64,000 bases of DNA from an uncultured Thermoanaerobaculia bacterium (GCA_964420075.1 CAYQRE010000006.1:74793-138792), one strand, 5' to 3'; numbered from the stretch's first letter, positions 7,210-61,010 are shown. Notes: generated from the letters alone by a model not told the origin. Numbers and translations are program-made.

Positions 7210-8139
7210 CGCTGAGCTCCTCCGTAAATCGACGAAAAAGGTGATATTCGGAGGAGCCTAGCACGAGGCCGGCGGGCCGGCTCGGTTCCCTGCGGCGAGC
7301 CTCCGCGGTCCAAAGACAGGCGTCCGCTGCGATGGCACTGTTCTTGCCCCCGCAGCGCTCCATCCACCACCTTGCCTCGCGCCGCATCGCGCACCCAAGG
7401 AGGACCGATGCGCTTCCGCTGGAGACGATCCAAGACCGCCCGCGCCACCCTCGGTGAACAGGGGCTGCACCGCAGCACCCTCTCCGCCGGGCTTACTCTC
7501 GCGGCCCTTCTCGCCGCCTGGCCCTTGCGGCCCAGCAGGTCGAGCTGGGCCTCGACCGCTTCCAGGAGCTGTGGGAGAGGGCCCATCCCGCGGCCGCTCC
7601 GCTGCCGCCGTCGCCACCCATCCTTGCCCTCGAAGGTGCCGAGTGTGCCCTGACCGTCGCCGGGGACACCGCACGGCTCACCACCGCCCGAGGTCCAGGA
7701 CGTCCGGGCGCTCTCCGGCGGCCTCGTCCGCGCCGAAGGAGAGCAGCGCTGGAGCTTTAGACGACCGCAGCGTCCACACCGGCACCGCGATCAGGCAGGA
7801 AGATAACGACAAGATCCCCGCCGCGCGGGACCCCTGGGCGCAGCTCCAGGCGGCGCCGGGAGTGCGCACCGACCAGATCAACGTCGGCGGCAACGAGGCC
7901 AACCAACAATCGAGCTACATCTCACCCGGCGCCAAGGTGCAGCTGCGGCCGGCGGGCTCCGGCGCCGCGGCGCGGCTGGTCCTCACCGCCGCTCTGCCAC
8001 CTCCCGAGGTGGGTGTCGAGGTGGCGATCCAGCAGCCCAAGGAGCGCAAGGGGCGACGGCGCTAGGGCGTCCGCTCACCCCGGAACGAGAAAACGGCATC
8101 GAGTAGCCTACGACCATCAACCACAAAGGGACCGTCCTC

Positions 8140-49737: not shown

Positions 49738-50553
49738 GTGGCGTTCCTCCACTTCGGGTCCCGCCGGCTGGCCTACGAGCTCCACGGCTCCTCAGGCCCC
49801 CTCGTCGCCCTGGTGATGGGCCTGGGCATGCCGGGCGCCGCCTGGGCACCGCAGATCTCCGCCCTCGGGCCGTCCTACCGGCTGCTGACCTTCGACCACC
49901 CCGGGATCCACGCCTCAGACGCCCTCCCCGGCCTGCCTTCGGTACCCGAGTTGGCCGCCGACCTCGGCACCCTCCTCGCACACCTCGGCGCGCGGACCGT
50001 CCACCTCGTCGGTATCTCGATGGGGAGTCAGATCGCTCTCGCGACGGCCCTCGCGGCGCCGGCGCGGGCTGCCTCGCTCACTCTGCTCTCGACCTGGAGC
50101 GGCCGCACGCTCTGGTTACCGACCCTCGCCAACCTGCGCTGGACGCCAGCCGTCGTCTTGCGAAGCGGTCCACCCCACTACCGGGCGCTCGCCCGCCAGC
50201 TCTTCTCGCGCCGCTTTCGGGCCTCGCTCGCCGAGGCCGAGGTCATCGCCCGCCTCAGCGCCGGCCTCGGCCCTCGGCCGTCGGCGCGCAACACCCTTGG
50301 GCAGTTCTGGTCACTCCTGCGCTACGACGCCGGCCGCCAGCTCGGGGCGCTTGCCGCCGTGCCCACGCTGGTGGTCCACGGTGGGGCTGACTGCTTGGTG
50401 CCCGTCTCGCGAGCCCGCGAGCTGGCACGACGCATCCCCGGCGCTCGCTTCGAGCTCGTGGCCGGCTGCGGGCACGGCTTGTCCATGGAAGCCGCGGCCG
50501 AGGTGAACCGCCTCTTGGCGGAGCACTTCGCCGCCGCCGGCGAGCTGCCCTAG
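49738..50553 (+). CDS. Alpha/beta-hydrolase fold protein
   Basis: Nucleophile elbow 'HLVGISMGSQIA' (GxSxG), C-terminal 'VVHGGADCLVP' and 'GCGHGLSME' (catalytic His region). Alternative-start (GTG) ORF. Confidence 0.7.
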   Translation: MAFLHFGSRRLAYELHGSSGPLVALVMGLGMPGAAWAPQISALGPSYRLLTFDHPGIHASDALPGLPSVPELAADLGTLLAHLGARTVHLVGISMGSQIALATALAAPARAASLTLLSTWSGRTLWLPTLANLRWTPAVVLRSGPPHYRALARQLFSRRFRASLAEAEVIARLSAGLGPRPSARNTLGQFWSLLRYDAGRQLGALAAVPTLVVHGGADCLVPVSRARELARRIPGARFELVAGCGHGLSMEAAAEVNRLLAEHFAAAGELP

Positions 50554-50738
50554 AGGCCGGGTGGGGCCTGGCGCAGCAACCACCAGACCCCGCAACCCAG
50601 CGCGACAAAGAAGGCCAGCACGGTCACGGCGGCCCACAGCGCGAAGCGCCGCCCCTTGGGGCCGACGGCAGCAAGGTAGGCCCCCACCGCGGCGAGCAGG
50701 GCGAAGAGCACGAAGGTAATCAGGGGCAACGTCATCAA
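50550..50738 (-). CDS. Small hydrophobic protein (2 TM, 62 aa)
   Basis: 'MMTLPLITFVLFALLAAVGAYLAAVGPKGRRFALWAAVTVLAFFVALGCGVWWLL' has a clean two-helix hydropathy. Overlaps the hydrolase stop by 4 nt on the opposite strand. Confidence 0.35.
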   Translation of the reverse strand: MMTLPLITFVLFALLAAVGAYLAAVGPKGRRFALWAAVTVLAFFVALGCGVWWLLRQAPPGL

Positions 50739-50906
50739 AGCCTCCCAGGAGGCCGAGCTGCGGGGCCGAAGAGGCCGGCTCGGCGAGCGTCCGATGGAGT
50801 GGACAGGACGCTTCTGGATGTCATGGCGAGAGTACTACGGCCGAGGCGGGGGGAGAGAACAGTGCGGAAGGCGGCGGCTGAGCTGAACGGGCGTTCTGCC
50901 CGGTGT

Positions 50907-50920
50907 TGGCAAGTTTGCCA
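50907..50920 (+). promoter_or_regulatory. Perfect inverted repeat TGGCAA-GT-TTGCCA, a candidate enhancer (UAS) for a σ54 activator
   Basis: Read directly from the sequence, about 125 bp upstream of the σ54-like −24/−12 element, inside a locally AT-richer intergenic island. Confidence 0.4.
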
Positions 50921-51038
50921 GAAGTTCACCACCAATGGGCATTTCTACCACCCAATTTTCCCAGATTCGGGTATGCTACCCGCCAACTTCTCCTGGTGCA
51001 GGCTGCTTGACGTCCCAGAAAAGGCAGCCTCGACGAGC

Positions 51039-51054
51039 TGGCATTTACGTTGCT
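51039..51054 (+). promoter_or_regulatory. Putative σ54 (RpoN) −24/−12 promoter, TGGCAT-N5-TTGCT
   Basis: Matches the consensus TGGCAC-N5-TTGCW with correct GG/GC spacing, about 185 nt upstream of the multiheme cytochrome start codon, in a 0.5-kb AT-rich non-coding region. Confidence 0.5.
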
Positions 51055-51239
51055 AGCAGAGACCCAAGAGAGACAACTTGGAACGCTCGTAGATGCAATG
51101 CACCCAAATTGCACTGACGAGAAGATGTGCGCTAGAATCCCAATCGAAATAGTAATTTCCAAAAGTTGGATTGTTGACTGATTAAGTTCAAAGTGGAGCT
51201 GATCGATGATCCAGGGAGCGACGGGGTGAGAGGGGCCGC

Positions 51240-52571
51240 GTGAGCAAGCAAGCGGATCGAAGCCTCGAGAGCACGCGGCTGCGGAACTGGCTCGTCTCCC
51301 GATTGTGGATGGTCGGCCTGGCCTTGGCACTCACCCTCGGCGGCCTGTTCCTCTCCGGGCATCGGCAGTTCTTCGTGCCCGGAACCACCTCCGACGGGCA
51401 CCACCTCCTTGAGCCATCCTGCAATTCCTGTCACAAGGGCTTCGCCCCGATCGCCAACGACGACTGTGTCAGCTGCCATCGCCCGGAGCTGGCGAGCGAC
51501 ACCCACCCCGTGCGCACCTTCGACGATCCACGGTGGGCGAGCGACCTGAAGGAAATTAACGCCCTTCGCTGCGTCACCTGTCATCACGAGCACAAGGTGG
51601 CCGCCGGTGGCGTCACCATCCGCCGCGAGTTCTGCTACCCCTGCCACGACGACGTGGTTGCCAAGCGGGCCAGCCACAAGGACCTCTCCCCCTCGTCCTG
51701 CGGCGACGCCGGCTGCCACAACTACCATGACAACTCTGGCCTCAACACCGCGGTGCTCACCGCTGCCCTGGGGCAACCCGACCAGCTGGCGGAGCCCGCA
51801 GTGCTGGCACGGCGCCTCGTCCCGGAGCCCGCCGGACCGCACCTGGCTCCCGACGCTCCTGCCGGCGTGACCGCTCCGGCCGCCCTCGTCCAGGCCTGGG
51901 ACGGCAGTGTCCATCGGCGAGCCGGGGTCGGCTGCTCGGACTGCCATGGCAAGGGCGAGGCCTTCGCCTTGCGGCCTGGCTTCGCCGCCTGCAAGACCTG
52001 CCACGGCTTCGAGGTCGATACCTTCGGTGCTGGGCAGCACGGGGTGCGCACACGCCTCGACCTCGAGCCGCTGCGGCCGGCGGACGCGCGATCCCCGATG
52101 GCTGCCGGGGCGTCGCGGCTGCACCCCGAGCATGGCTGTGGCTCCTGCCACGACGTGCACTCGGTCGACACCCGCCACGCGGCCACCGAGGCCTGCCTCG
52201 ACTGTCATGCAGACCGCCACAGCCTGGCCTTCGGCTCCTCTCCCCACGCCCGCGGCGCAACCCAGCTCGATCCTCACGACGGGCGGGCCGTCACCTGCGC
52301 GACCTGCCACCTGCCCCGGGTCGAGGTCGAGGAGAAGGGCGCCGTGAGGGTGGCGACCAACCACAACAACAGCCTGACCATGCGACCGATCGATCGCATG
52401 GCCCGCCTGGTCTGCAACCGCTGCCATGGCTATGAGCTGTCCCTCGCCAGCCTGCTCGACCCGCAGGCCGGGGCCAGCAATTTCGCTGCGAAGCCGTCTT
52501 CCCGGGCGCGCAGCTTCCTGATGGTGGAGGCTGCCCGCCTGGGTCGGCAGCCGGAAGGAGGAGGACGATGA
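51240..52571 (+). CDS. Membrane-anchored multiheme c-type cytochrome (10 × CxxCH + 1 × Cx4CH)
   Basis: GTG start with GAGAGGGG RBS. N-terminal TM helix 'LWMVGLALALTLGGLFL'. Heme motifs CNSCH, CVSCH, CVTCH, CYPCH, CGDAGCH, CSDCH, CKTCH, CGSCH, CLDCH, CATCH, CNRCH. Confidence 0.85.
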   Translation: MSKQADRSLESTRLRNWLVSRLWMVGLALALTLGGLFLSGHRQFFVPGTTSDGHHLLEPSCNSCHKGFAPIANDDCVSCHRPELASDTHPVRTFDDPRWASDLKEINALRCVTCHHEHKVAAGGVTIRREFCYPCHDDVVAKRASHKDLSPSSCGDAGCHNYHDNSGLNTAVLTAALGQPDQLAEPAVLARRLVPEPAGPHLAPDAPAGVTAPAALVQAWDGSVHRRAGVGCSDCHGKGEAFALRPGFAACKTCHGFEVDTFGAGQHGVRTRLDLEPLRPADARSPMAAGASRLHPEHGCGSCHDVHSVDTRHAATEACLDCHADRHSLAFGSSPHARGATQLDPHDGRAVTCATCHLPRVEVEEKGAVRVATNHNNSLTMRPIDRMARLVCNRCHGYELSLASLLDPQAGASNFAAKPSSRARSFLMVEAARLGRQPEGGGR

Positions 52572-53161
52572 TGGCAAGAGCTTGGTGCAGCAAGGGTCGC
52601 GTCGTCGCCGGCGTCGTCGGCCCAGCCCTGATCACCTGCCTGACCGCTTGCGGTGGCAGCGCTGCGAAACCGGCAGGGATCGCGCCCGAGCAGGCGGTCG
52701 ACTACATCCACGCCGTGATCGAGGCTGATCGCAGTGTCTACGCCGAACGCGTGGTGCAACGCCTGCAGAACACCGAGGGCGTGATCAAGGCCAGCGAGCA
52801 TTTCGAGGCCGACAAGGCCCTGCCACTGCCGGCCCAGATGTTGCGCATGGGCTCGCAGGCGGCGGCCGAGAAGGGCGACTTCCGCTACGCCCTGATCAGC
52901 CAGTGGGCGATCAACAAAGCCAACCTGCCGAAGACGGATGCCGAGAAAGCCGGGATGGAGCAGGTGATCGCCGATCCCTCCAAGCCCTATCGCAGCTATC
53001 TGACGGTGAATGGTCGCCGCTACTTCATGGCCATCTACGCCGACCGCGCCGTCTCCCCGGCGTGCGTCAAGTGCCACAACGAGCACCAAGAGAGCCCGCG
53101 CCACGACTTCACACCCGGCGACGTGATGGGCGGCGTCGTCGTCACCCTTCCCCTCGACTGA
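52568..53161 (+). CDS. DUF3365-like (Tll0287-type PAS-like) c-heme lipoprotein
   Basis: ATGA overlap with the cytochrome stop and GGAGGA RBS. Lipobox 'LITCLTACGG'. A single C-terminal 'CVKCH'. About 190 aa, the size and layout of the DUF3365/Tll0287 heme-PAS family. Confidence 0.6.
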   Translation: MMARAWCSKGRVVAGVVGPALITCLTACGGSAAKPAGIAPEQAVDYIHAVIEADRSVYAERVVQRLQNTEGVIKASEHFEADKALPLPAQMLRMGSQAAAEKGDFRYALISQWAINKANLPKTDAEKAGMEQVIADPSKPYRSYLTVNGRRYFMAIYADRAVSPACVKCHNEHQESPRHDFTPGDVMGGVVVTLPLD

Positions 53162-53179
53162 CCTGGAGCGAGATCGGAC

Positions 53180-53767
53180 ATGCGTACGGAAACTCTGCGT
53201 TGGGAATTTCGGGTCCTGCCTTGGCTGGCGTTGCTCGGCGTCATCGTGCTGGCTCTCCTACCCCTCAGCATCTCCCTGCTGGGAGCCTTGCCGTTGTCGG
53301 AGAACATCCGTCTCCTCGGCAAGCTCTCGGAGAGCCACCGCTTCCGCGAGCTTACGGGCTACGGCGCCCTTGCCCTGGTCGCCTTCGAGGGGCTGCTCAT
53401 CCTCCACAAGCGGGGCAAGCTACCGTTCATGCCCGGCAACCGCATTAGCTGGCGTTCGGCGCACATCTTCGTCGGCGCGTCGCTGATCCCGTTGGTCGTC
53501 ATCCATACCGGCGGCCGCTGGGGGAGCAACCTCAACGGCGCCCTGCTGCTGAGCTTGATGGCCGTCGTGCTGATCGGGGTGGCCGGTAAGCTGATCGAAG
53601 CGATTCACTTGCAGCGCAACGTCCAGAGTGCCAAGGCCGAGGCCGGCAAAGAGGGAGGCCGGCGGCGCGCGCCCATGCATACCTACTGGCTACGGCTCCA
53701 CATGATGCTGGCGACGGTGCTGGTCGCCCTGCTGGGCTTCCACATCTTCAGCGTCTACTACTTCTAG
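53180..53767 (+). CDS. Small polytopic membrane protein, probable di-heme cytochrome b (DUF4405-like)
   Basis: 195 aa with 4–5 TM helices and conserved intramembrane His ('LILHKRG', 'SAHIFVG', 'VVIHTGG', 'GFHIFS'). Third gene of the cytochrome operon. Confidence 0.55.
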   Translation: MRTETLRWEFRVLPWLALLGVIVLALLPLSISLLGALPLSENIRLLGKLSESHRFRELTGYGALALVAFEGLLILHKRGKLPFMPGNRISWRSAHIFVGASLIPLVVIHTGGRWGSNLNGALLLSLMAVVLIGVAGKLIEAIHLQRNVQSAKAEAGKEGGRRRAPMHTYWLRLHMMLATVLVALLGFHIFSVYYF

Positions 53768-53805: not shown

Positions 53806-53835
53806 GCGAAAGGCCCCCTGCTGGGGGCCTTTCGC
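53806..53835. terminator. Strong GC hairpin, a likely bidirectional terminator between the cytochrome operon and the convergent H-NOX operon
   Basis: Perfect 12-bp stem GCGAAAGGCCCC/GGGGCCTTTCGC with a 6-nt loop, lying between the stop codons of the convergent genes at 53767 and 53881. Confidence 0.6.
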
Positions 53836-53880: not shown

Positions 53881-54420
53881 TCAGGCTGACAGGACGCGGA
53901 CACGAATCTGCGTCGAAGGCGCGTCGTCGCCTCCCTCACAGATGATCTCCACCCTCTCGCCGTAGTACCCAGCGACACCGCGCACGATGCCGCGAGCCAA
54001 CGCTGCCATCTTGCGGGGCGACCGATAGAGGATCGTCACCTCGTTGTCGCCGGTGCGCGAGCAGACCAACGCCGGCGGCTTGGCCTGGCGGTTGCGCGTC
54101 CGCACGATGTGGTGGATGGTGCTCTCGACGTTGGTCAGGAACTCGAGGGTCTTCCACTTGGGGTCGATCAACGGCCGGTAGATCGTCACCAGATCAGCCC
54201 CGATGAACTGGCCGAAGTCCTCCAGGATGTTCGGCACCGGGATCCCCGTGATCTTCGAGGCCGTGACGACGATCCCCACCGCCTCCTCGTCCGGGTACAT
54301 GAGGAAGTTCTCGTACTCCTTCTTGCCCAACCCGGCCTGCTCGAGCACTGCGATCCAGGCTTCGCGGCCGAGCTTCGACTCGACGTATTTTTTTATTTCC
54401 GAGAAAATAAATCCGTGCAC
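53881..54420 (-). CDS. hnoX: Stand-alone H-NOX (heme nitric oxide/oxygen-binding) sensor protein
   Basis: 179 aa. Aligns along its length with Tt H-NOX: N-terminal 'MHGFIFSEIKKYVESKLG', proximal-His region 'ESTIHHIV', heme-propionate Y-x-S-x-R motif 'ILYRSPRKMAALARGIV', and C-terminal 'TQIRVRV'. GTG start with GAGGGA RBS. Confidence 0.85.
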   Translation of the reverse strand: MHGFIFSEIKKYVESKLGREAWIAVLEQAGLGKKEYENFLMYPDEEAVGIVVTASKITGIPVPNILEDFGQFIGADLVTIYRPLIDPKWKTLEFLTNVESTIHHIVRTRNRQAKPPALVCSRTGDNEVTILYRSPRKMAALARGIVRGVAGYYGERVEIICEGGDDAPSTQIRVRVLSA

Positions 54421-54460
54421 CGTTGACTCCCTCGGTGGCGAATGATGACCCGGGAGCTGT

Positions 54461-55294
54461 CTAGCTCAGCTCGCCGACGGCGGCCAGCAGCTTGGGCTCG
54501 TACTTCTTCATGATGGCCCGCGCGAGCCCGAGATTGCCACGCCGGCCCACCGCCAGCACGTGGTAGTAGTCCTTGCCCATCGGGCGGATGAGGACGTAGA
54601 TCTTCTCGGTGGAGATCAGGATGTCCTCCGTCGAGCCAGCCCCCATCCCCAGCAGGTCGAGGGCCCGGCCGTTTGCCTTGACCACCTCGGCGTAGGACGC
54701 CGCGGCCACCGAGGCATCGAAGTCCGGGTCGATGGAGCCGCCGCCGATGGACAACCCGCTGTCCACGTTGACGATGTCCGTCGAGACGAACTCAGGGACC
54801 TCCTCGCGAAACGACTCCAGCACCTTGTGCAACGTGTTCATGCTCCCCTCCTCCTTGAGGTCCGTCCACCAGCCATCCTCGATCGGCACCACGGGGGCCA
54901 GCTCGGGACGGTCCTCCGTCTTCTTCCGCTCGTCGTCGCGCCGGCTGCTCTCGAGCAGCAGCATGGTCAGCGAGCACTCGATCCGCGGCGTGCGGTCGCC
55001 GGCAAAGGTCTTGATCTCGATGTCGTTGCTCCGCCAGCCGATGAGCTCGTAGGCGGCGTCCTCCCCCTGGAGATCCCCTACCTCGGCGTCGATCAGGGCA
55101 CCGTCCAGGAAGAAGAGGTGGCCCACCCGATCGGCCGCGTACACGCACACCAGGCACGTGGTCTTCTCGATCGAGACCATCTGCAGCACGGTCGGCAGGC
55201 TGATCCCCTGGACGTAGCCGAGGAAGTCCTGCACCTCGATGCGGTTGCGCAGCTCGAAATTGGAGATCGCCATGCTCAACCTAGGTAGTTTCAT
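54461..55294 (-). CDS. PATAN (DUF4388) domain + Roadblock/LC7 (MglB-like) domain protein
   Basis: N-terminal 'VQDFLGYVQGISLPTVLQMVSIEKTTCLVCV…HLFFLDGALIDA…GEDAAYELIGW' fits the DUF4388/PATAN pattern. C-terminal 'EFVSTDIVNVDSGLSIGG…AASYAEVVKANGRALDLLG…KIYVLIRPMGKDYYHVLAVG' fits Roadblock/LC7. Confidence 0.65.
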   Translation of the reverse strand: MKLPRLSMAISNFELRNRIEVQDFLGYVQGISLPTVLQMVSIEKTTCLVCVYAADRVGHLFFLDGALIDAEVGDLQGEDAAYELIGWRSNDIEIKTFAGDRTPRIECSLTMLLLESSRRDDERKKTEDRPELAPVVPIEDGWWTDLKEEGSMNTLHKVLESFREEVPEFVSTDIVNVDSGLSIGGGSIDPDFDASVAAASYAEVVKANGRALDLLGMGAGSTEDILISTEKIYVLIRPMGKDYYHVLAVGRRGNLGLARAIMKKYEPKLLAAVGELS

Positions 55295-55325
55295 CCCTCA
55301 CGGTTTTCGGGACACACCAAGAAAG

Positions 55326-55913
55326 TCAATCTGCTTCACTCATGACTCGTACGAGTCCTTCGCGGAGTGTGTGCACCAACTCCCGGCGCACCGGCTGGCT
55401 GACCACGAAGCCGAGGATGTAGCGGCCGAGGGCAGTGTCGGCCTGCAGCAGCTCGAGGACCTGGCCGCGATCCAGGTCGATCGAGACCGAACCCAGGATC
55501 GGTGACTCCAGGCAGGAGTGGAGCCGGTCGAGCAGGCTTACGAAGGAAGCCGCCACCGCCACCATCACTGGGTCGGAGTTCTTCTCCATGAGGACGAAGC
55601 CCTCGGCATCCGCCACGAAGAGCCGGCGGCAGCCAGTGAGCTCCAAGATAAACGCGAAGTAGGTCTTCAGGCGGACCTGCAGGGGGGCCCCGCTCGGCAG
55701 GCGAAGGCCCTCGGCCTCACCGGCCATGGCCCCGCGTGGGGCAACCGGCGGGGCCGGCGGCGGCGAGCTCCACAAAGAGCCGGCCGGCCAGGGTTGGAAA
55801 CCGCCATCTCCCGCGACCGGGGCCGGAGACGCCGGCGGCCGCGCCATGAGGCCTGCTCGCGCCAACGTGGCAGCGAGCTCCGCCGGCTCAATCCAGGAGA
55901 GAGATCGGCTCAT
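55326..55913 (-). CDS. Roadblock/LC7 (MglB-like) domain protein with Pro-rich N-terminal extension
   Basis: 'YFAFILELTGCRRLFVADAEGFVLMEKNSDPVMVAVAASFVSLLDRL…GRYILGFVVSQ' fits the Roadblock/LC7 fold pattern. Overlaps the upstream ATPase gene by 26 nt. Confidence 0.6.
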   Translation of the reverse strand: MSRSLSWIEPAELAATLARAGLMARPPASPAPVAGDGGFQPWPAGSLWSSPPPAPPVAPRGAMAGEAEGLRLPSGAPLQVRLKTYFAFILELTGCRRLFVADAEGFVLMEKNSDPVMVAVAASFVSLLDRLHSCLESPILGSVSIDLDRGQVLELLQADTALGRYILGFVVSQPVRRELVHTLREGLVRVMSEAD

Positions 55914-56697
55914 CGGCGCTTTCCTCGCGCAGGAGCCCCAGGCGAGGCTCGAGCTCGGCAGCGATCTGGTCGAAGACGGCCGCCACGGGCGGCGGCCGAC
56001 GGCTGAGCAGCCCGATCGGCACGCCGTAGGCGCTCGCTTTGAGAAAGGCGGGGTCGCGAGGCACGAAGCCGTTGAGCACCAGCTCGGGGGGAAGCGTGCT
56101 CCAGCTCTCCTGGGCCACGGTCAGTGAGACGTCGCTCCGCGAATTGAGCATGCTGACGACAAAGCCCACCACCTCGACGCGCGCGCCGCGCTCGCGCAAC
56201 TGGCCGAGACGATTGAGCAGCTGGGTGATCGACCGCAGCGCCAGTGGTTCCGCCTGCAGGGGCACCAGCGCATGGTCGGCCAGCTCGAGAGCGACGGCGG
56301 CAGGTCCTTGCAGCCCCGAGGGCGTGTCCACCACGACGAGGTCGTAGAGCGGCCGCAGGCTGTCGAAGACTCGCCCCATCTTGTCGCGGTCGGCGAGGAG
56401 CTGGTCCTGCTCGGGGTCGCTCGGCAGGCCGGCCGCGCCGGCCACCGGCAGCACTGCCAGCTCCGGGAGATGGGTCTGGAGGATCGCTTCCTGGAGACCG
56501 ATACGGCCTTCGAGATGAGCGAGCAGGCCCTGCCCGCGGCGGTTGGCACCCTGTACCGACAAGCCCACGGCACCGAGCGGGTCGACGTCCATCACGAGCG
56601 TCTTCCAGCCGCGGCGGGCCAGCGCATAGCTGAGATTGAGAGCGACAGTGGTCTTGCCGACTCCGCCCTTCTGGCTCACGACTGCGAGCAAGGCCAT
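55888..56697 (-). CDS. MinD/ParA-family (SIMIBI-class) P-loop ATPase
   Basis: Internal ATG giving 'MALLAVVSQKGGVGKTTVALNLSYALARRGWKTLVMDVDP' with the deviant Walker A KGGxGK[ST]. 'LVVVDTPSG' is the Walker B. 269 aa. Confidence 0.8.
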   Translation of the reverse strand: MALLAVVSQKGGVGKTTVALNLSYALARRGWKTLVMDVDPLGAVGLSVQGANRRGQGLLAHLEGRIGLQEAILQTHLPELAVLPVAGAAGLPSDPEQDQLLADRDKMGRVFDSLRPLYDLVVVDTPSGLQGPAAVALELADHALVPLQAEPLALRSITQLLNRLGQLRERGARVEVVGFVVSMLNSRSDVSLTVAQESWSTLPPELVLNGFVPRDPAFLKASAYGVPIGLLSRRPPPVAAVFDQIAAELEPRLGLLREESADEPISLLD

Positions 56698-56826
56698 CGT
56701 CCCCTTCCGCGCGGCGAACCGCGAAGCAACATCGATCGGACGCCCGCGTCCCCGTGAATCGAACGTGTGAAAGAGGCTGAATCCTGCCACAGATACGGAC
56801 TTCCGCGCAAGCTTGTTTGTATGTAT

Positions 56827-56995: not shown

Positions 56996-57412
56996 CTAGA
57001 GCTTGTACAGCATCCAATACACCACGACGCCCGTCACCGAGACGTACAGCCAGATCGGCAGCGTCCAACGGGCCAGGCGGCGGTGGCGCTCGAAACGCCC
57101 CCGCAGGGCCAGCACGAGCACCATGACGGCGAGGATCGGCACCAACGCCGCGAGAATGGTGTGCGAGGCGAGGATCGCCAGGTAGGCAGTGCGCAGCGCT
57201 CCGGTCCCCGCGAACCGGCGCGAGCCCGTTTCGGCGTGGTAGATGAGATAGGAGATCAGGAACAGGATGGAGCTGGCGAAGGCGGCGGTCATCACCACGC
57301 GGTGCGCCGTGCGCCGACCGCGGCGGATGAGCAGGTATCCGGCGACGAGAAGGAGTGCCGAAAGGCTGTTCAGCAGGGCATTGAGGGCTGGCAGCTGGCT
57401 CGTCGCAGGCAT
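56996..57412 (-). CDS. DUF420-family membrane protein (cytochrome-oxidase-associated)
   Basis: Internal ATG 'MPATSQLPALNALLNSLSALLLVAGYLLIRRG…'. 138 aa, 4 TM. C-terminal 'WLYVSVTGVVVYWMLY' is typical of DUF420. Confidence 0.65.
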   Translation of the reverse strand: MPATSQLPALNALLNSLSALLLVAGYLLIRRGRRTAHRVVMTAAFASSILFLISYLIYHAETGSRRFAGTGALRTAYLAILASHTILAALVPILAVMVLVLALRGRFERHRRLARWTLPIWLYVSVTGVVVYWMLYKL

Positions 57413-57509
57413 GGTGGCGGGAGGAGTTTGCGGCACCGCGCGGCGAAGAGCAATCCCCGGGGCGGCGTTGCCGCGGGGCCAGACCGCTCCGGCCCCGCGA
57501 CGCAGTGGC

Positions 57510-59165
57510 TCACGGGTCAGAGATCGGTGCCGTCCAAATCTCCTCCTTGCCTCCGCTGCGGCGGTCGGTCCAGGAGGGGAAGAACTTGCCGAGGAAACCC
57601 GAAAGGCCGTTGTAGTCGCCGTACTGGTTGCCGAGGTTGGCGCTCGACTGGGTCTCATCGGTCTGCGCGGTGGTGACCTGCAGCGGCGCCGACCAGGTCA
57701 CACCGTCGTTGCTGGAAGACTGATAGTAGACGTGGGTCTTCAAGCGCGCCGAGTCGGCCACCGTGTCGTAGTACATGATGCCGACCGTACCGTTCGATTC
57801 GTCGACCGCCAAGAACTGGTTGAATTGATCGTTCTTCGACGCCTGGTTGTTGATCTTCACCGGCGCCGACCAAGTGGCTCCGCCGTCGGTCGAGCGCGCG
57901 AACCAGATGCGCGTCTTGCAGCTCGAGGCCGCATTCGAGCCTGGTTCGTTGGCGGCAGCGGTGCAGCCGGTCTCGCCGGAGAGGTCGGTCCAGGAGACGT
58001 AGACGTTGTTCTTGGTCGCCGTGCGATAGGCCGCTCCAGAGGTGTAGATCAGGGCACGACGGCTGTTGAACGAAGGCACGCCGATGTCGTAGCCGTCGTA
58101 CATCGTGGCGACGACCACCGCCGTCGACCAGGAGGCCCCGCCGGTGGTCGACTTGCGGACGACGACCCGGCGGTTGCTCGTGGTGGGCCAAAAGGCGAAG
58201 ACGTCGCCACTGCTGTTGGTCTTGATGTCGCAGCCGATCGCCGTGCCCGTGGACTCCGAGCCGCTGACCTGCACGGGCGTCTGCCAACCGGCGCTGGTAC
58301 GCCGTCCGACGTAGGCCGGGTTCCCGTTGTGGTAGCAGACGTAGACGTTGTCGCGGAAGGAGGAGCTGGCGCTGTGGTCGACCCACATCAGCTCCTTGTC
58401 GGTGCTGCGCTGGCTGCCCGACACCGTCCCGTCGAAGGTCCAGGTCACGCCGCCGTCGGTCGATCGGTAGGCCCGGGTCTTGAGAGTGTTGCCCTTGATG
58501 CCGAGGGTCACGGCCCAGGCGGTGCCATCGGAGGTCCAGTCCACGGCGGGGTCCGAGTGGAAGCTGTCCGTACTCGCCAAGGGTAGCTCGGTACGCCCCC
58601 AGGTCGCGCCGCCGTCCGACGAATAGAACTGGGCCTGCCGGCCAGTGCCGCCGATGTTGTTGGAGGCGGCGATGATCTGGTTGGGGGCCAGGAAGTTGAT
58701 CCTGATGTCGGATTCGCTGTGCGGGCTGGGCTGCGCGGTCGAGATCCGGCGATCGGCCGCCACCGAGGCCTTGTCCGCCCCCGCCAGCTCCTCCGCTCCC
58801 GGCTTGCCGGGCTCGAGGTCCTGGTGGGTCAGCATCCACTGGTGGATCTCTTTCAGGACGTGCGGATAGCCGCCCGTCGGGTCGTCCGCCGCGTAGACCG
58901 CTCCCGGGTGCCCCTTGCGCCACCAGACACGCAGCCACAGGGGCAAGCGACGTCCGTCCACGAGCTCATCGGCCCGGAGCAGGGCGAAGTCCTGGTTGGT
59001 GCGCACCAGCTGCGCCAACGCTGTCCCCGGCCGGATCTGATCGACCGCGAGCTGCTCCGTCAACGTGGGAGGGCCCTGGCGGCCTGGAGCAGCCCAGGCG
59101 GCCAGCGAGAGAAGGGACGACCCGAGGCAGCACAGCGCAGAGACCAAGACAAGCTTCGATTTCAT
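57510..59165 (-). CDS. Secreted BNR/Asp-box repeat β-propeller protein (sialidase-like fold)
   Basis: Signal peptide 'MKSKLVLVSALCCLGSSLLSLAAWA'. At least five Asp-box repeats (SSDGGATWG, STDGGVTWT, STTGGASWS, STDGGATWS, SNDGVTWS). Confidence 0.75.
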   Translation of the reverse strand: MKSKLVLVSALCCLGSSLLSLAAWAAPGRQGPPTLTEQLAVDQIRPGTALAQLVRTNQDFALLRADELVDGRRLPLWLRVWWRKGHPGAVYAADDPTGGYPHVLKEIHQWMLTHQDLEPGKPGAEELAGADKASVAADRRISTAQPSPHSESDIRINFLAPNQIIAASNNIGGTGRQAQFYSSDGGATWGRTELPLASTDSFHSDPAVDWTSDGTAWAVTLGIKGNTLKTRAYRSTDGGVTWTFDGTVSGSQRSTDKELMWVDHSASSSFRDNVYVCYHNGNPAYVGRRTSAGWQTPVQVSGSESTGTAIGCDIKTNSSGDVFAFWPTTSNRRVVVRKSTTGGASWSTAVVVATMYDGYDIGVPSFNSRRALIYTSGAAYRTATKNNVYVSWTDLSGETGCTAAANEPGSNAASSCKTRIWFARSTDGGATWSAPVKINNQASKNDQFNQFLAVDESNGTVGIMYYDTVADSARLKTHVYYQSSSNDGVTWSAPLQVTTAQTDETQSSANLGNQYGDYNGLSGFLGKFFPSWTDRRSGGKEEIWTAPISDP

Positions 59166-59338
59166 CTCCAACCTCCGTGATTGAGGCCAAGCGTGCAGGG
59201 GGCGACCCGGCAAGGGGGACGACGCACGAACACCATGACCTCGGTTGAGGAGGAGAAGCTGCCAGACTATCTCCGTGTAGAGATATTACGAACGAAAGAA
59301 AATTTCGATAGTAGTGGCGCAGTATCAATAAGGTGTCG

Positions 59339-59359
59339 CGTGGTTCGGCTCGAACCACG
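59339..59359 (-). terminator. Perfect 9-bp hairpin CGTGGTTCG-GCT-CGAACCACG downstream of the SCO1 gene
   Basis: Read directly from the sequence, 35 nt past the SCO1 stop on the minus strand, in an AT-richer spacer. Only a weak U-tract. Confidence 0.4.
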
Positions 59360-59393
59360 TCGAGACCTCCAGGTCGACGCTAGGGGGTCGAAG

Positions 59394-60029
59394 CTATGGC
59401 TCTGGTGAGTTGCCCTCGCGCTGGACGGCGCGGGCGTCGCGAACCAGGCGGTCGAGGTCGGCGGGCTCGAAGGGATTGTAGAAGCCCCGGAGGCCACCGT
59501 CGCCGTCGACGAGGATCAGTCGCGTGGCGTGGATCACTGGCCCTTGCTCGGGTGGACTGTCGACCCCGGCGGGAGCGACCCCCAACTTGAAACCCGAGAT
59601 CGACAGCTCCCAGATCGCTTGCCGGTCACCCGTGAGGAAGAGCCAATCGTCCCCGGCGCCGAAGCGGCGAGCGTACTCGTCGAGCACGGTCGGCGTGTCG
59701 TGCTCGGGGTCCACGGTGATCGACACCCTGAGCACGCCCTTGGGCAACCGAGGCCCAATCTCGGCCAGTCGCTGGGTCATCAGCGGGCACGGGCCCGGGC
59801 ACCGCGTGTAGATGAAGTCCGCGATCCAGACGACCCCGGCGAGATCGTCGAGGCGCACGTCTCTGCCATCGCGGTTGCTGAGGACAAAGCCCGGCAAGTA
59901 GGCGACGACCTGCGGCGCCGGGCGCCGGGCCTCGGTGCGGCTGCGCTCGAGCGCCACGACGCCGACCACAGCCAGGACCGCCACCAGCACCAGCCAGAGG
60001 AACCCCCGCAGGGCGGTTCGTCGGTCCAT
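59394..60029 (-). CDS. SCO1/SenC-family copper chaperone (thioredoxin fold)
   Basis: N-terminal TM anchor. 'FIYTRCPGPCP' is the SCO CxxxC copper-binding motif, and a conserved His lies in 'DPEHDTP'. Confidence 0.8.
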   Translation of the reverse strand: MDRRTALRGFLWLVLVAVLAVVGVVALERSRTEARRPAPQVVAYLPGFVLSNRDGRDVRLDDLAGVVWIADFIYTRCPGPCPLMTQRLAEIGPRLPKGVLRVSITVDPEHDTPTVLDEYARRFGAGDDWLFLTGDRQAIWELSISGFKLGVAPAGVDSPPEQGPVIHATRLILVDGDGGLRGFYNPFEPADLDRLVRDARAVQREGNSPEP

Positions 60030-60089
60030 CGCTCTCAGAGCTCCTCCGCGCTCGCCAGGTGGCCTGCCGGCACGCCGCCGGCAGCCGAG

Positions 60090-61010
60090 CTAGCCGGCGA
60101 GCAGGCGGTCGATCAGGGTGAGCAGGAAAATCCCCGGCAGGTAGAAGACCGAGGTCAGCAGCACCCGGCGAGCCGTCGGTTGGCCGGGTAGATGGGCGAA
60201 GCGGAAGCAAGCAGTGAGATAGAGGAGTCCGAGGACCAGCGTGCCGGCGAAGTAGGTCAACCCGGTCAGCCGGAGAGCGGAGGGCAGCAGGCTCACCGGG
60301 ATCAGCGCCGCACCCCAGAGCAGCATCTGAAAGGCCGTCGCCCGGCCGTCGCGATCACCGACCGTCAGCAGCGGAAAGCCGCCCCGTGCGTAGTCTTCGC
60401 GGTACATCCAGGCAATCGCCAGAAAGTGCGGCATCTGCCAGAAGAAGAGCAGCCCGAAGAGGGCCCAGGCACCGGGCTCGAGGCCGCCCGTCGCCGCCGA
60501 CCAACCCATCATCGGCGGAATGGCCCCCGGCACCGCACCCACCACCGTGGCGAAGGAGGTCTGGCGCTTGAGCGGCGTATAGACGAAGACGTAGCCGGCC
60601 ACGGTGAGGGCACCGAGCAATGCCGTCAGGGGACGCGCCCAGGTGAGCAGCACCAGCAGGCCAGCGGTCACCAGGGTGAGACCAAAGAGCAGGGCGCTCT
60701 CAGGATCGACCCGCCCCGTTGGCAGCGGCCGCTGGGCGGTGCGTCGCATGCGGGCATCGTGGCTGCGCTCGAGCAGGTGGTTGAAGGTGCCGGCGCCCGC
60801 CGAGAGCAGTCCGGTGCCGAGGACGGCAGCCATGAAGCCGAGCCACCCGGTGTGCTCCGCACCCACTGAGCGCCCGCCGAGCAGGTAGCCAGCCGCGGCG
60901 GTGACCGCGACCATCGAGGTGATCCGCGGCTTGGTGAGCTCCACCCAGTCGGCCAAGCGGGCCGCCGGCACGGAGTCGCCGGGGACGAGATCAGCACGCT
61001 CTAGCTGCAT
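60090..61010 (-). CDS. ctaB: Protoheme IX farnesyltransferase (heme O synthase)
   Basis: UbiA-family motifs 'NHLLERSHDARMRRTAQRPL' and 'YTPLKRQT', with 8–9 TM helices. 306 aa. Confidence 0.85.
   Translation of the reverse strand: MQLERADLVPGDSVPAARLADWVELTKPRITSMVAVTAAAGYLLGGRSVGAEHTGWLGFMAAVLGTGLLSAGAGTFNHLLERSHDARMRRTAQRPLPTGRVDPESALLFGLTLVTAGLLVLLTWARPLTALLGALTVAGYVFVYTPLKRQTSFATVVGAVPGAIPPMMGWSAATGGLEPGAWALFGLLFFWQMPHFLAIAWMYREDYARGGFPLLTVGDRDGRATAFQMLLWGAALIPVSLLPSALRLTGLTYFAGTLVLGLLYLTACFRFAHLPGQPTARRVLLTSVFYLPGIFLLTLIDRLLAG

What the first reader, a model, noticed from the sequence alone, without database searches (positions are those of the whole stretch)
50739..53767. A σ54-type promoter with an upstream palindrome drives an operon of an 11-heme cytochrome, a DUF3365 heme lipoprotein and a b-type membrane cytochrome
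A 0.5-kb AT-rich island in a ~70% GC background contains a near-consensus −24/−12 element (TGGCAT-N5-TTGCT, 51039-51054). A perfect TGGCAA-GT-TTGCCA palindrome lies ~125 bp upstream (50907-50920), which is the geometry expected for an enhancer-binding-protein UAS. Downstream are three translationally coupled genes: a TM-anchored cytochrome with 10 CxxCH motifs plus an unusual Cx4CH (CGDAGCH) site, a lipoprotein with the DUF3365/Tll0287-like single-heme PAS-like layout, and a small His-rich 4–5 TM protein resembling di-heme cytochrome b membrane anchors. Together this looks like a compact quinol↔periplasmic electron-transfer module of unassigned function. It sits tail-to-tail with the H-NOX cluster, and the two share a bidirectional terminator hairpin.
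Basis: partly seen in the sequence, partly recalled or inferred. Interest (0 to 1): 0.7.

Follow-up and report, generated by a model that had tools for sequence, protein, structure and literature searches.

The report
Membrane heme chain linked to nitric-oxide genes
Three co-transcribed genes encode a heme chain from the inner membrane into the periplasm, a reduced form of a widespread, unstudied module that in most bacteria carries an NAD(P)H-oxidising enzyme domain and sits beside nitric-oxide-detoxifying globins.

Summary

**Genes**
- P1 has an N-terminal membrane anchor and 11 heme c sites, including the Cx4CH site. All 11 sites are invariant, as are 11 further His, which fits an all-bis-His electron wire.
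- P2 is a Tll0287-like ("sCache_heme") lipoprotein without the axial Cys.
- P3 has two invariant H-x13-H pairs. Its model best matches E. coli cytochrome b561, so it is very likely a di-heme cytochrome b.

- The trio occurs in at least 533 species genomes across many phyla.
- In 66 of 86 loci the P3 domain is the C-terminus of a NirB/NorW-like NAD(P)H flavoprotein.
- 51 of 86 loci carry an Hmp-like or truncated globin in the operon.
- NsrR-like regulators and nitrate-assimilation genes recur.
- The window holds the flavoprotein-less variant, kept beside an H-NOX cluster in its clade.

**Promoter**
- The σ54 motif is modest on its own: 10/12 matches, local chance about 0.02, absent in the nearest relatives.
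- σ54-type motifs are strongly enriched upstream of the module overall: 20 of 77 loci against about 1.6 expected.
- The palindrome and the hairpin are neither unusual nor conserved.

**Verdict:** partly supported, and more interesting than proposed. This is probably an undescribed periplasm-facing electron-delivery system tied to NO or nitrogen-oxide stress.

The parts
50907..50920 (.).
   Evidence: Present and unique in the window as a 14-mer. It is one of 13 short inverted repeats in the 501-bp intergenic region. The upstream DNA of relatives cannot be aligned. Function is not supported.
51039..51054 (+). σ54-type -24/-12 candidate TGGCAT-TTACG-TTGCT, about 186 nt upstream of the P1 start codon
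   Evidence: It scores 10/12 with correct GG/GC spacing, and the local chance is about 0.023. Comparable motifs are enriched upstream of the module in other phyla. It is absent in the nearest relatives. The transcription start has not been mapped.
51109..51138 (+). Rival σ70-like candidate TTGCAC-N18-TAGAAT
   Evidence: It is the only pair with at least 8/12 matches in the intergenic region in my relaxed scan. The stricter tool scan found none.
51240..52571 (+). P1: membrane-anchored periplasmic 11-heme cytochrome c, 443 aa
52568..53161 (+). P2: lipoprotein with one heme c in a Tll0287-like (sCache_heme) domain, 197 aa
   Evidence: Pfam PF11845 E=1.7e-17. The lipobox Cys28 is conserved in at least 90% of sequences. 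CxxCHNxH, Met91 (LPAQM), Y58 and W113 are invariant in 35 P1-linked homologs, and there is no axial Cys. It lies next to P1 in 78 of 86 loci.
53180..53767 (+). P3: five-helix membrane protein, predicted di-heme cytochrome b, 195 aa
53793..53844 (.). GC-rich hairpin between the convergent P3 and H-NOX genes
   Evidence: 13-bp perfect inner stem at 53806-53835, MFE -66.5 kcal/mol, z = -4.8. It has no U-tract and is not conserved in relatives.
53881..54420 (-). Convergent H-NOX gene (context): first gene of an H-NOX / PatA_N (DUF4388) / unknown / ParA-like cluster reaching 56790
   Evidence: Pfam HNOB E=1.2e-33. The same cluster lies tail-to-tail with P1-P2-P3 in L004/L005, L089 and L091. An H-NOX gene is divergent from the fusion gene in a Polyangiaceae locus, L059.

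Best explanation
The three genes encode one electron-transfer chain that runs from the inner membrane into the periplasm.

- P3 is a five-helix cytochrome b. It holds two b hemes, one near each membrane face, between two His pairs (H95+H174 and H109+H188). I infer that it carries electrons across the membrane.
- P1 is anchored by one N-terminal helix and carries 11 covalently bound hemes. Each heme appears to have two His ligands, so P1 looks like a wire or electron store rather than an enzyme.
- P2 is a lipoprotein of the heme-Cache (Tll0287/sCache_heme) family that lacks the axial Cys. It probably uses the invariant Met91 instead. I infer that it is the terminal site, either a redox partner or a small-ligand-reactive heme.

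The window holds a reduced variant of a module found in many phyla. In most genomes the P3 domain is fused to a NirB/NorW-like NAD(P)H-FAD-[2Fe-2S] reductase. The operon there also holds a monoheme cytochrome c and an Hmp-like or truncated globin, often with an NsrR-like repressor or nitrate-assimilation genes. It is often preceded by a σ54-type promoter.

The most likely role is therefore to deliver reducing power to the periplasm to deal with nitric oxide or a related nitrogen oxide. In this organism the flavoprotein domain is missing, so electrons would come from quinol or from an unlinked reductase. The neighbouring H-NOX cluster would be the NO-sensing side of the same biology.

Shown: the cofactor-binding motifs, their conservation, the fusion, the gene linkage and the promoter enrichment. 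Inferred: the direction of electron flow, the substrate, and σ54 use in this particular window.
For: Cofactor sites:
- P1 has 11 invariant heme motifs and 11 further invariant His.
- P3 has two invariant H-x13-H pairs, and its fold matches di-heme cytochromes b. DUF4405 has been shown experimentally to bind heme b (PMC11334425).
- P2 is a Pfam Tll0287-like member without an axial Cys. Cys-less sCache_heme binds NO with an H-NOX-like off-rate (bioRxiv 10.64898/2026.02.01.703092).

Fusion:
- P3 is fused to a protein with Pyr_redox_2, Rubredoxin_C and Fer2_BFD domains. This part matches NirB residues 8-465 at 1e-117 and also NorW.
- The fusion occurs in 66 of 86 loci.
- The exhaustive profile search lists many 630-700-aa proteins with the domain at the C-terminus.

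Neighbourhood:
- Globin or truncated hemoglobin lies in the operon in 51 of 86 loci. Any NO- or nas-related neighbour occurs in 58 of 86.
- The globin matches the N-terminal domain of NO-inducible Hmp at 1e-50. The best match of the Rrf2 neighbours is NsrR.
- L090 has the order NIR_SIR, globin, P1, P2, P3, cytochrome c, ferredoxin, NasA-like.
- The H-NOX cluster is adjacent in four diverged relatives, and independently in a Polyangiaceae locus.

Other:
- P1's structural neighbours are N-oxide enzymes: HAO, octaheme nitrite reductase and NrfA.
- σ54 motifs occur in 20 of 77 loci against 1.6 expected.
- Precedent: the Bjgb-Flp NO-detoxification and nitrate-assimilation unit (PMC4724949).
Against: - The window itself has no globin, NirB-like reductase, NsrR, NasT or nitrate reductase. 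The NO link here rests on the H-NOX neighbour and on homologs.
- H-NOX adjacency within the window's clade could be inherited synteny. The DUF420-SCO1-UbiA genes beyond it are conserved too.
- No catalytic site has been identified, and P2's sixth ligand is inferred from a weak partial alignment to 5B82.
- P3 alone does not reach any Pfam model.
- Some loci, such as L006, show no N-oxide context.
- Nitrate-assimilation linkage could reflect electron supply to NasA rather than NO chemistry.
- No experimental data exist for any member in the searchable literature.
Confidence: 0.55

Rival explanations
1. It is a general respiratory module: a quinol:periplasmic or extracellular acceptor oxidoreductase used for metal or other anaerobic respiration, like the Geobacter Cbc/ImcH-type inner-membrane cytochromes. 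Under this reading it has no special link to nitric oxide.
For: The architecture is a cytochrome b plus a multiheme c wire. The closest genomes are Holophagales/Acidobacteriota MAGs. The window variant lacks the NAD(P)H domain and the globin. Some loci lack any N-oxide context.
Against: No outer-membrane porin or cytochrome partner recurs in the 86 neighbourhoods. The recurrent partners are globins, NsrR-like regulators and nas genes. The carriers include many aerobic marine heterotrophs. NAD(P)H input through a fused flavoprotein is the majority form.
Confidence: 0.15
2. P1 is itself an enzyme of the HAO/NrfA/octaheme-reductase lineage. One heme would have an open site and one of the 'extra' invariant His would be a catalytic residue. 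P1 would reduce nitrite, NO or hydroxylamine, and P2 would be an accessory.
Against: There is no CxxCK motif. The count of 22 invariant His for 11 hemes fits all-bis-His ligation. In the alignment to the HAO-like protein 6h5l, that protein has an extra heme motif (CDMCH) that P1 lacks. The matched segments are the electron-transfer heme pairs of NrfA.
Confidence: 0.1
3. The module is a sensor rather than a catalyst. P2 reports periplasmic NO or redox state, and P1 and P3 set or relay its redox poise. It would work together with the adjacent H-NOX / PatA_N / ParA-like cluster.
For: About half of the sCache_heme domains are sensor modules of kinases, MCPs and GGDEF proteins. Members without the axial Cys behave as NO sensors. 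An H-NOX signalling cluster lies next door in this clade.
Against: P2 has no output domain and is translationally coupled to an 11-heme cytochrome. The fused NAD(P)H reductase and the 13-heme path look built for electron flux. The H-NOX link is limited to one clade plus one other locus.
Confidence: 0.1
4. Promoter rival: transcription starts from a σ70-type promoter (TTGCAC-N18-TAGAAT, 51109-51138), and the σ54-like sequence is a chance match.
For: A σ70-like pair with 8/12 matches lies in the AT-rich island. The σ54 motif is absent in L004, L089, L091, L006 and L010. Seven sites in the window score equally. No rpoN or bEBP signature occurs in the window.
Against: The family-wide σ54 enrichment is about 13-fold over shuffles, and at a score of 11 or more it is 10 forward against 0 reverse. 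The σ70 candidate has a poor -35 element and was not called by the standard scan.
Confidence: 0.45

Closest known systems
Tll0287 / DUF3365 'sCache_heme' family (PDB 5B82; bioRxiv 10.64898/2026.02.01.703092)
   Same: P2 matches Pfam PF11845 well above the cut-off. It has the strictly conserved C-terminal CXXCH, is extracytoplasmic, and is a stand-alone domain.
   Different: There is no axial Cys, unlike Tll0287 and the P. putida protein, and an invariant Met91 is the candidate ligand. P2 is a lipoprotein. It is only a remote match to 5B82 (profile E=0.34). It is obligately paired with an 11-heme cytochrome, a partnership the preprint does not mention.
DUF4405 and bacterial cytochrome b561 (E. 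coli CybB, 5OC0); FdnI/HyaC-type di-heme b subunits
   Same: It is a four-helix heme-binding core with four conserved His, and the best structural match is CybB. DUF4405 binds heme b experimentally (PMC11334425).
   Different: P3 itself scores below every Pfam model. It has five helices rather than the six described for DUF4405. Its partner is a multiheme cytochrome c, not a flavinylated protein or a dehydrogenase. Its commonest form is a C-terminal fusion to a NirB-like flavoprotein.
Bradyrhizobium Bjgb-Flp system, and Hmp / NorVW (NO detoxification powered by an NAD(P)H flavoprotein)
   Same: In relatives, an Hmp-like single-domain globin sits with a NirB/NorW-like NAD(P)H flavoprotein, often inside nas clusters with NasT.
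   Different: Here the flavoprotein is welded to a transmembrane di-heme b domain and feeds 12 periplasmic c hemes. The window variant has neither the globin nor the flavoprotein.
NADPH oxidase-type transmembrane electron export (NOX5, SpNOX) and MsrQ-type ferric-reductase domains
   Different: The domain order is reversed, with the flavoprotein N-terminal. The flavoprotein is of the Pyr_redox_2 plus BFD [2Fe-2S] type rather than the FNR type. The acceptor is a multiheme cytochrome, not O2.
Geobacter inner-membrane cytochrome complexes (CbcL, CbcBA, ImcH) and NapC/NrfH/CymA quinol dehydrogenases (own knowledge)
   Same: These are inner-membrane entry points that pass electrons to periplasmic multiheme cytochromes. 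CbcL also combines a di-heme b domain with a 9-heme c domain.
   Different: P1 does not hit the NapC/NirT family model. The neighbourhoods contain no metal-respiration partners. Input in most members is NAD(P)H rather than quinol.
HAO / octaheme nitrite reductase / NrfA multiheme enzymes
   Same: The C-terminal six-heme half of P1 shares heme-pair modules and fold with them.
   Different: P1 has no CxxCK motif, no evident open-site heme, and 11 hemes with 11 distal His. The module order is permuted relative to NrfA.

Membership tests
Tll0287-like / sCache_heme (PF11845) | Match to the family profile above the curated threshold | tested here: met
   64.6 bits against a cut-off of 24.1, E=1.7e-17, covering aa 44-195.
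Tll0287-like / sCache_heme (PF11845) | Strictly conserved CXXCH heme c motif near the C-terminus | tested here: met
   C166-V-K-C169-H170 is invariant in 35 P1-linked homologs.
Tll0287-like / sCache_heme (PF11845) | Extracytoplasmic location | tested here: met
   A signal peptide with an LTAC lipobox is present, and Cys28 is conserved in at least 90% of sequences. This is read from the sequence only.
Tll0287-like / sCache_heme (PF11845) | Cys/His axial ligation, as in Tll0287 and the redox-type stand-alone members | tested here: not met
   The mature protein has no Cys outside CXXCH. This feature defines a subgroup, not the whole family.
Tll0287-like / sCache_heme (PF11845) | Cache fold carrying the heme insertion | not tested
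The profile match to 5B82 is weak (E=0.34).
DUF4405 / prokaryotic cytochrome b561 clan | Match to PF14358 or PF01292 | tested here: inconclusive
   The window P3 has no hit at E<=1. Fourteen of 19 family members hit DUF4405 (best E=4.9e-6), and the two members scored individually fall below the 26.7-bit cut-off (17.1 and 24.3 bits). Six of 19 hit Ni_hydr_CYTB.
DUF4405 / prokaryotic cytochrome b561 clan | Four conserved transmembrane His able to ligate two b hemes | tested here: met
   H95, H109, H174 and H188 are invariant in 19 and 22 sequences, with H-x13-H on two helices.
DUF4405 / prokaryotic cytochrome b561 clan | Di-heme four-helix-bundle fold | tested here: met
DUF4405 / prokaryotic cytochrome b561 clan | Heme b actually bound | not testable with these tools
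   This needs a pyridine hemochrome assay on purified protein, as was done for DUF4405 in PMC11334425.
NapC/NirT/NrfH quinol dehydrogenases (for P1) | Match to the family model, with a tetraheme core directly after the TM helix | tested here: not met
   No Cytochrom_NNT hit at E<=0.1. There is only a weak QrcA hit (E=0.003, 17 bits against a cut-off of 180).
HAO / NrfA / octaheme reductase enzymes (for P1) | A catalytic heme with an open or unusual axial position (CxxCK Lys ligand or a five-coordinate P460-type heme) | tested here: not met
   No CxxCK motif is present. Eleven invariant non-motif His accompany 11 hemes.
σ54-dependent promoter | GG and GC doublets 10 nt apart within a TGGCAC-N5-TTGCW-like sequence upstream of the gene | tested here: met
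   51039-51054, 10/12 matches.
σ54-dependent promoter | rpoN and an enhancer-binding protein in the genome, with a UAS | tested here: inconclusive
   No GAFTGA or RpoN-box motif occurs in the 64-kb window, and the rest of the genome cannot be reached. The palindrome is not above chance. An NtrC-like site with 3 mismatches lies at -114.
σ54-dependent promoter | Conservation of the element upstream of orthologous operons | tested here: inconclusive
   It is absent in the closest relatives. It is present in 20 of 77 loci family-wide against 1.6 expected.
Globin-flavoprotein NO detoxification unit (Bjgb-Flp / split Hmp) | Globin and NAD(P)H flavoprotein genes in the same operon | tested here: not met
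   Neither is present in the window. They are present in relatives: globin in 51 of 86 loci and the flavoprotein fusion in 66 of 86.

The most novel reading that the evidence does not exclude
The conserved core (di-heme b domain, 11-heme wire and Cys-less heme-Cache lipoprotein) is an undescribed periplasm-facing NO reductase or scavenger, possibly acting on nitrite or hydroxylamine instead. It would be driven NOX-style by cytoplasmic NAD(P)H across the membrane. P2 would be the catalytic NO-binding heme and P1 a multi-electron store. The fused NirB/NorW-like reductase would also be the long-sought reductase of the co-encoded single-domain and truncated globins. The window organism would run a quinol-fed version under H-NOX-linked control.
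Probability: 0.25. Interest if true: 0.85.

Novelty: new variant of a known kind. Interest (0 to 1): 0.6.

Why it matters
- **Partner for stand-alone heme-Cache proteins.** A 2026 preprint left the role of stand-alone heme-Cache (DUF3365) proteins open, calling it 'redox-related'. This work gives a large subfamily a fixed partner, an 11-heme cytochrome, and a membrane entry point.
- **A distinct way to export electrons.** The usual fusion of the cytochrome b domain to a NirB/NorW-like NAD(P)H reductase is a bacterial route from NAD(P)H to the periplasm that differs from NOX, MsrQ and flavinylation systems.
- **A candidate globin reductase.** The module's tight linkage to Hmp-like and truncated globins offers a candidate for the unidentified reductase of single-domain globins. 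PMC4724949 notes that the donor for Cgb is unknown.
- **Testability.** The module occurs in at least 533 species genomes, including cultured Neptuniibacter, Microbulbifer, Cerasicoccus and Polyangium. The hypothesis can therefore be tested directly by genetics and NO-consumption assays.

Tried and rejected
- **P2 against the PDB.** phmmer found no hit. The profile search gave only a marginal 5B82 match, so the Met91 axial-ligand assignment stays an inference.
- **Upstream DNA.** The upstream regions of the window, L004, L089 and L091 could not be aligned meaningfully. A shared word (CACCAAyGG.CA.TTCT) between the window and L004 rests on only two sequences.
- **Palindrome and NorR sites.** Neither the palindrome nor a NorR-type site was found upstream of the σ54 motifs of the other loci.
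- **Leader RNA.** There is no Rfam family in the leader or intergenic region, and the leader fold is unremarkable (z = -1.7).
- **σ70 and terminators.** The standard σ70/terminator scan found no σ70 site, and its terminator calls were at the chance level.
- **Linked bEBP genes.** Only 1 of 91 loci has a GAFTGA motif within 8 kb.
- **Literature.** Searches for the gene combination returned no description. The 'undecaheme' UetJ of Tenderiales is an unrelated extracellular system.
- **Model coordinates.** These were not available to scripts, so His-heme geometry could not be checked.

Full report
**1. Observation**

The region contains three same-strand genes.
- P1 runs 51240-52571. P2 runs 52568-53161, and its ATG overlaps the P1 stop as ATGA. 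P3 runs 53180-53767, starting after an 18-nt gap.
- P1 carries ten CxxCH motifs and one CGDAGCH. P2 has a single CVKCH behind an LTAC lipobox. P3 has no Cys and eight His.
- Pfam places P2 in Tll0287-like (E=1.7e-17) and the N-terminal half of P1 in Cytochrom_c3_2 (E=6e-14). P3 matches nothing.
- The -24/-12-like sequence, the 6+2+6 inverted repeat, the AT-rich island and the GC-rich hairpin are all at the stated positions.

**2. The three proteins**

P1:
- In 49 homologs of 35-55% identity, all eleven heme motifs are invariant, including Cx4CH.
- Exactly eleven further His are invariant: 54, 89, 118, 146, 163, 225, 267, 307, 327, 336 and 375.
- Five of these lie in the five-heme N-terminal half and six in the six-heme C-terminal half. 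The simplest reading is eleven bis-His hemes, so P1 is a wire or electron store.
- The AF2 model has pLDDT 81, about 90 in the C-terminal half.
- Profile matches cover the electron-transfer heme pairs of NrfA. The HAO-like protein 6h5l has one more heme motif at a point where P1 has none.
- There is no CxxCK motif.

P3:
- H95/H109 and H174/H188 are invariant. They form two H-x13-H pairs on the third and fifth helices.
- By the positive-inside rule the N-terminus and the 77-93 and 141-169 loops are cytoplasmic (my reading of the sequence). That places one heme near each membrane face.
- Fourteen of 19 family members weakly match DUF4405, six match Ni_hydr_CYTB and four match Ferric_reduct.
- DUF4405 has been shown to bind heme b (PMC11334425).

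P2:
- In 35 P1-linked homologs the invariant residues include CxxCHNxH, the LPAQM motif with Met91, Y58 and W113. No Cys lies outside the lipobox and the heme motif.
- A 2026 preprint renames this family sCache_heme. It shows that members with an axial Cys behave as redox proteins. A Cys-less member binds NO with an off-rate like H-NOX.
- A weak partial alignment to 5B82 puts Tll0287's Cys68 within a few residues of Met91. I treat His/Met ligation as an inference.

**3. Comparative genomics changes the picture**

Distribution:
- A scan of one genome per species found at least 533 genomes encoding a P1 relative.
- They span Acidobacteriota, Verrucomicrobiota, Planctomycetota, Gammaproteobacteria, Myxococcota, Rhodothermales and cyanobacteria.
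- The closest is a Holophagales MAG at 53% identity.

Census of 86 non-duplicate loci:
- P2 lies beside P1 in 78.
- In 66 the gene just upstream of P1 is a protein of about 650 aa whose C-terminus is the P3 domain. It ends ...FHILASYYF, as P3 does.
- Its N-terminus carries Pyr_redox_2, Rubredoxin_C and Fer2_BFD domains. It matches NirB residues 8-465 of 794 at 1e-117 and also matches NorW.
- The exhaustive profile search agrees. It found 1006 cluster representatives, about 200-aa stand-alone forms plus many 630-700-aa proteins with the domain at the C-terminus.
- Stand-alone P3, as in the window, occurs in 13 loci.

Recurrent neighbours:
- A globin or truncated hemoglobin lies in the same-strand operon in 51 of 86 loci. 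The globin matches the N-terminal domain of NO-inducible flavohemoprotein at 1e-50.
- A monoheme cytochrome c occurs in 25 loci.
- Rrf2 regulators whose best match is NsrR occur in 8.
- Nitrate-assimilation genes (NasT-type ANTAR regulator, ABC permease, NasA-like molybdoenzyme) occur in 26.
- Any of these occurs in 58 of 86.
- One close relative with a stand-alone P3 (L090, 51% identity) has the order NIR_SIR, globin, P1, P2, P3, cytochrome c, ferredoxin, NasA-like.

The window's clade:
- The window itself has none of these neighbours.
- Four diverged relatives (L004/L005, L089, L091; 51-54% identity) keep the H-NOX / PatA_N / unknown / ParA-like cluster tail-to-tail with P1-P2-P3.
- A Polyangiaceae locus independently places an H-NOX gene divergent from the fusion gene.

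**4. Promoter**

- The window motif scores 10/12. Seven sites in the window score equally. The chance of such a forward hit in 501 bp of local composition is about 0.023.
- No hit of 8 or more lies upstream of P1 in L004, L089, L091 or L006. The upstream DNAs do not align.
- The window encodes no GAFTGA or RpoN-box protein.
- On that evidence alone I would have called the promoter unsupported. I therefore scanned -350 to +100 of the first module gene in 77 loci.
- That scan gave 20 forward hits of 10 or more against 3 on the reverse strand. At 11 or more it gave 10 against 0.
- Markov shuffles expect 1.6±1.2 (maximum 6) and 0.14 respectively.
- Most motifs lie 52-77 nt before the ORF start. 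They come from Verrucomicrobiota, Planctomycetota, Gamma- and Alphaproteobacteria.
- Four nas-linked loci have NtrC-like sites (2 mismatches or fewer) 123-164 nt upstream of the motif.
- σ54 control is therefore a recurrent trait of this module, which raises the prior for the window site. I put it near even odds against the σ70-like TTGCAC-N18-TAGAAT at 51109-51138.
- The palindrome is one of 13 comparable inverted repeats and recurs nowhere. An NtrC-like site with 3 mismatches lies at -114.
- The hairpin folds strongly (z = -4.8). It has no U-tract, and its place is taken by an 18-nt gap or a 4-nt overlap in relatives.

**5. Mechanism**

Shown:
- A cofactor set sufficient for a continuous path of 2 b hemes, 11 c hemes and 1 c heme from the cytoplasmic membrane face into the periplasm.
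- An NAD(P)H-FAD-[2Fe-2S] input module fused to it in most lineages.
- Tight linkage to NO-related genes.

Inferred:
- Electrons flow outward. Bis-His c hemes and a NirB-type input favour reduction of a periplasmic acceptor.
- P2 is the terminal site.
- The acceptor is NO or a related nitrogen oxide.
- The window variant draws on quinol or an unlinked reductase.

The closest functional precedents are the Bjgb-Flp unit of Bradyrhizobium (PMC4724949) and NOX-type transmembrane export. Rivals are a general respiratory conduit, an HAO/NrfA-like catalytic P1, and a sensory role for P2.

**6. Novelty and verdict**

- I found no description of this gene combination in the searchable literature. The sCache_heme preprint does not mention multiheme or globin partners.
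- The kind of system, a cytochrome b plus a multiheme c conduit, is known. This family, its flavoprotein fusion and its NO/globin linkage appear to be new.
- The UAS and terminator readings are weak.
- The function can be narrowed considerably.

Noticed in passing
window 53881-56790 (-): An H-NOX gene is followed by a PatA_N/DUF4388 protein, a 195-aa protein with no Pfam hit and a ParA/MinD-like ATPase. By eye the H-NOX has the YxSxR motif (YRSPR) and a candidate proximal His in ESTIHH. The four-gene cluster is conserved in L004, L089 and L091. This is an unusual partner set for H-NOX, with no kinase or cyclase.
   Followed up: partly
window 56996-61010 (-); L004 13540-15486: DUF420, SCO1/SenC and UbiA (heme O synthase-like) genes follow the H-NOX cluster in the window's relatives. 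The cytochrome operon therefore sits in a syntenic block with oxidase-assembly genes. This weakens the argument that H-NOX adjacency reflects function.
   Followed up: partly
L013 4355-5836; L014 7950-9383: In two cyanobacteria-type loci P1 is split into two ORFs, a five-heme half and a six-heme half. The split falls at the Pro/Ala-rich linker (window P1 aa ~175-215), which suggests a two-module protein. Sequencing frameshifts were not excluded.
   Followed up: no
L047 720-4740 and 5956-10072: A Thiohalomonadales MAG carries two tandem copies of the fusion-P1-P2 module.
   Followed up: no
window 50550-50738 (-): A 62-aa two-helix membrane protein is divergent from P1. ORFs of 60-62 aa are called in the upstream regions of L004, L089 and L091, though not adjacent to P1 there. 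Their homology to the window ORF was not checked.
   Followed up: no
window 50922-50950; L004 ~7843-7868: The upstream regions of the window and L004 share a word, CACCA(CCA)AyGG(G)CAkTTCT. In the window it overlaps the NtrC-like site with 3 mismatches, 114 nt upstream of the σ54-like motif. It rests on only two sequences.
   Followed up: partly
L035, L038, L042, L045, L050, L053, L072 (Verrucomicrobiota-type loci): These loci have a different gene order: NsrR-like Rrf2, then P2, cytochrome c, globin or truncated hemoglobin, flavoprotein-cytochrome b fusion, P1. In L045 and L050 a σ54-type motif lies between the Rrf2 gene and P2, so both an Fe-S repressor and σ54 may act there.
   Followed up: partly
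window P3 aa 191-195 and all homologs: The extreme C-terminus S-V-Y-Y-F is invariant or nearly so, in stand-alone and fused forms alike. It is predicted to lie at the periplasmic face and is a candidate docking element for P1.
   Followed up: no
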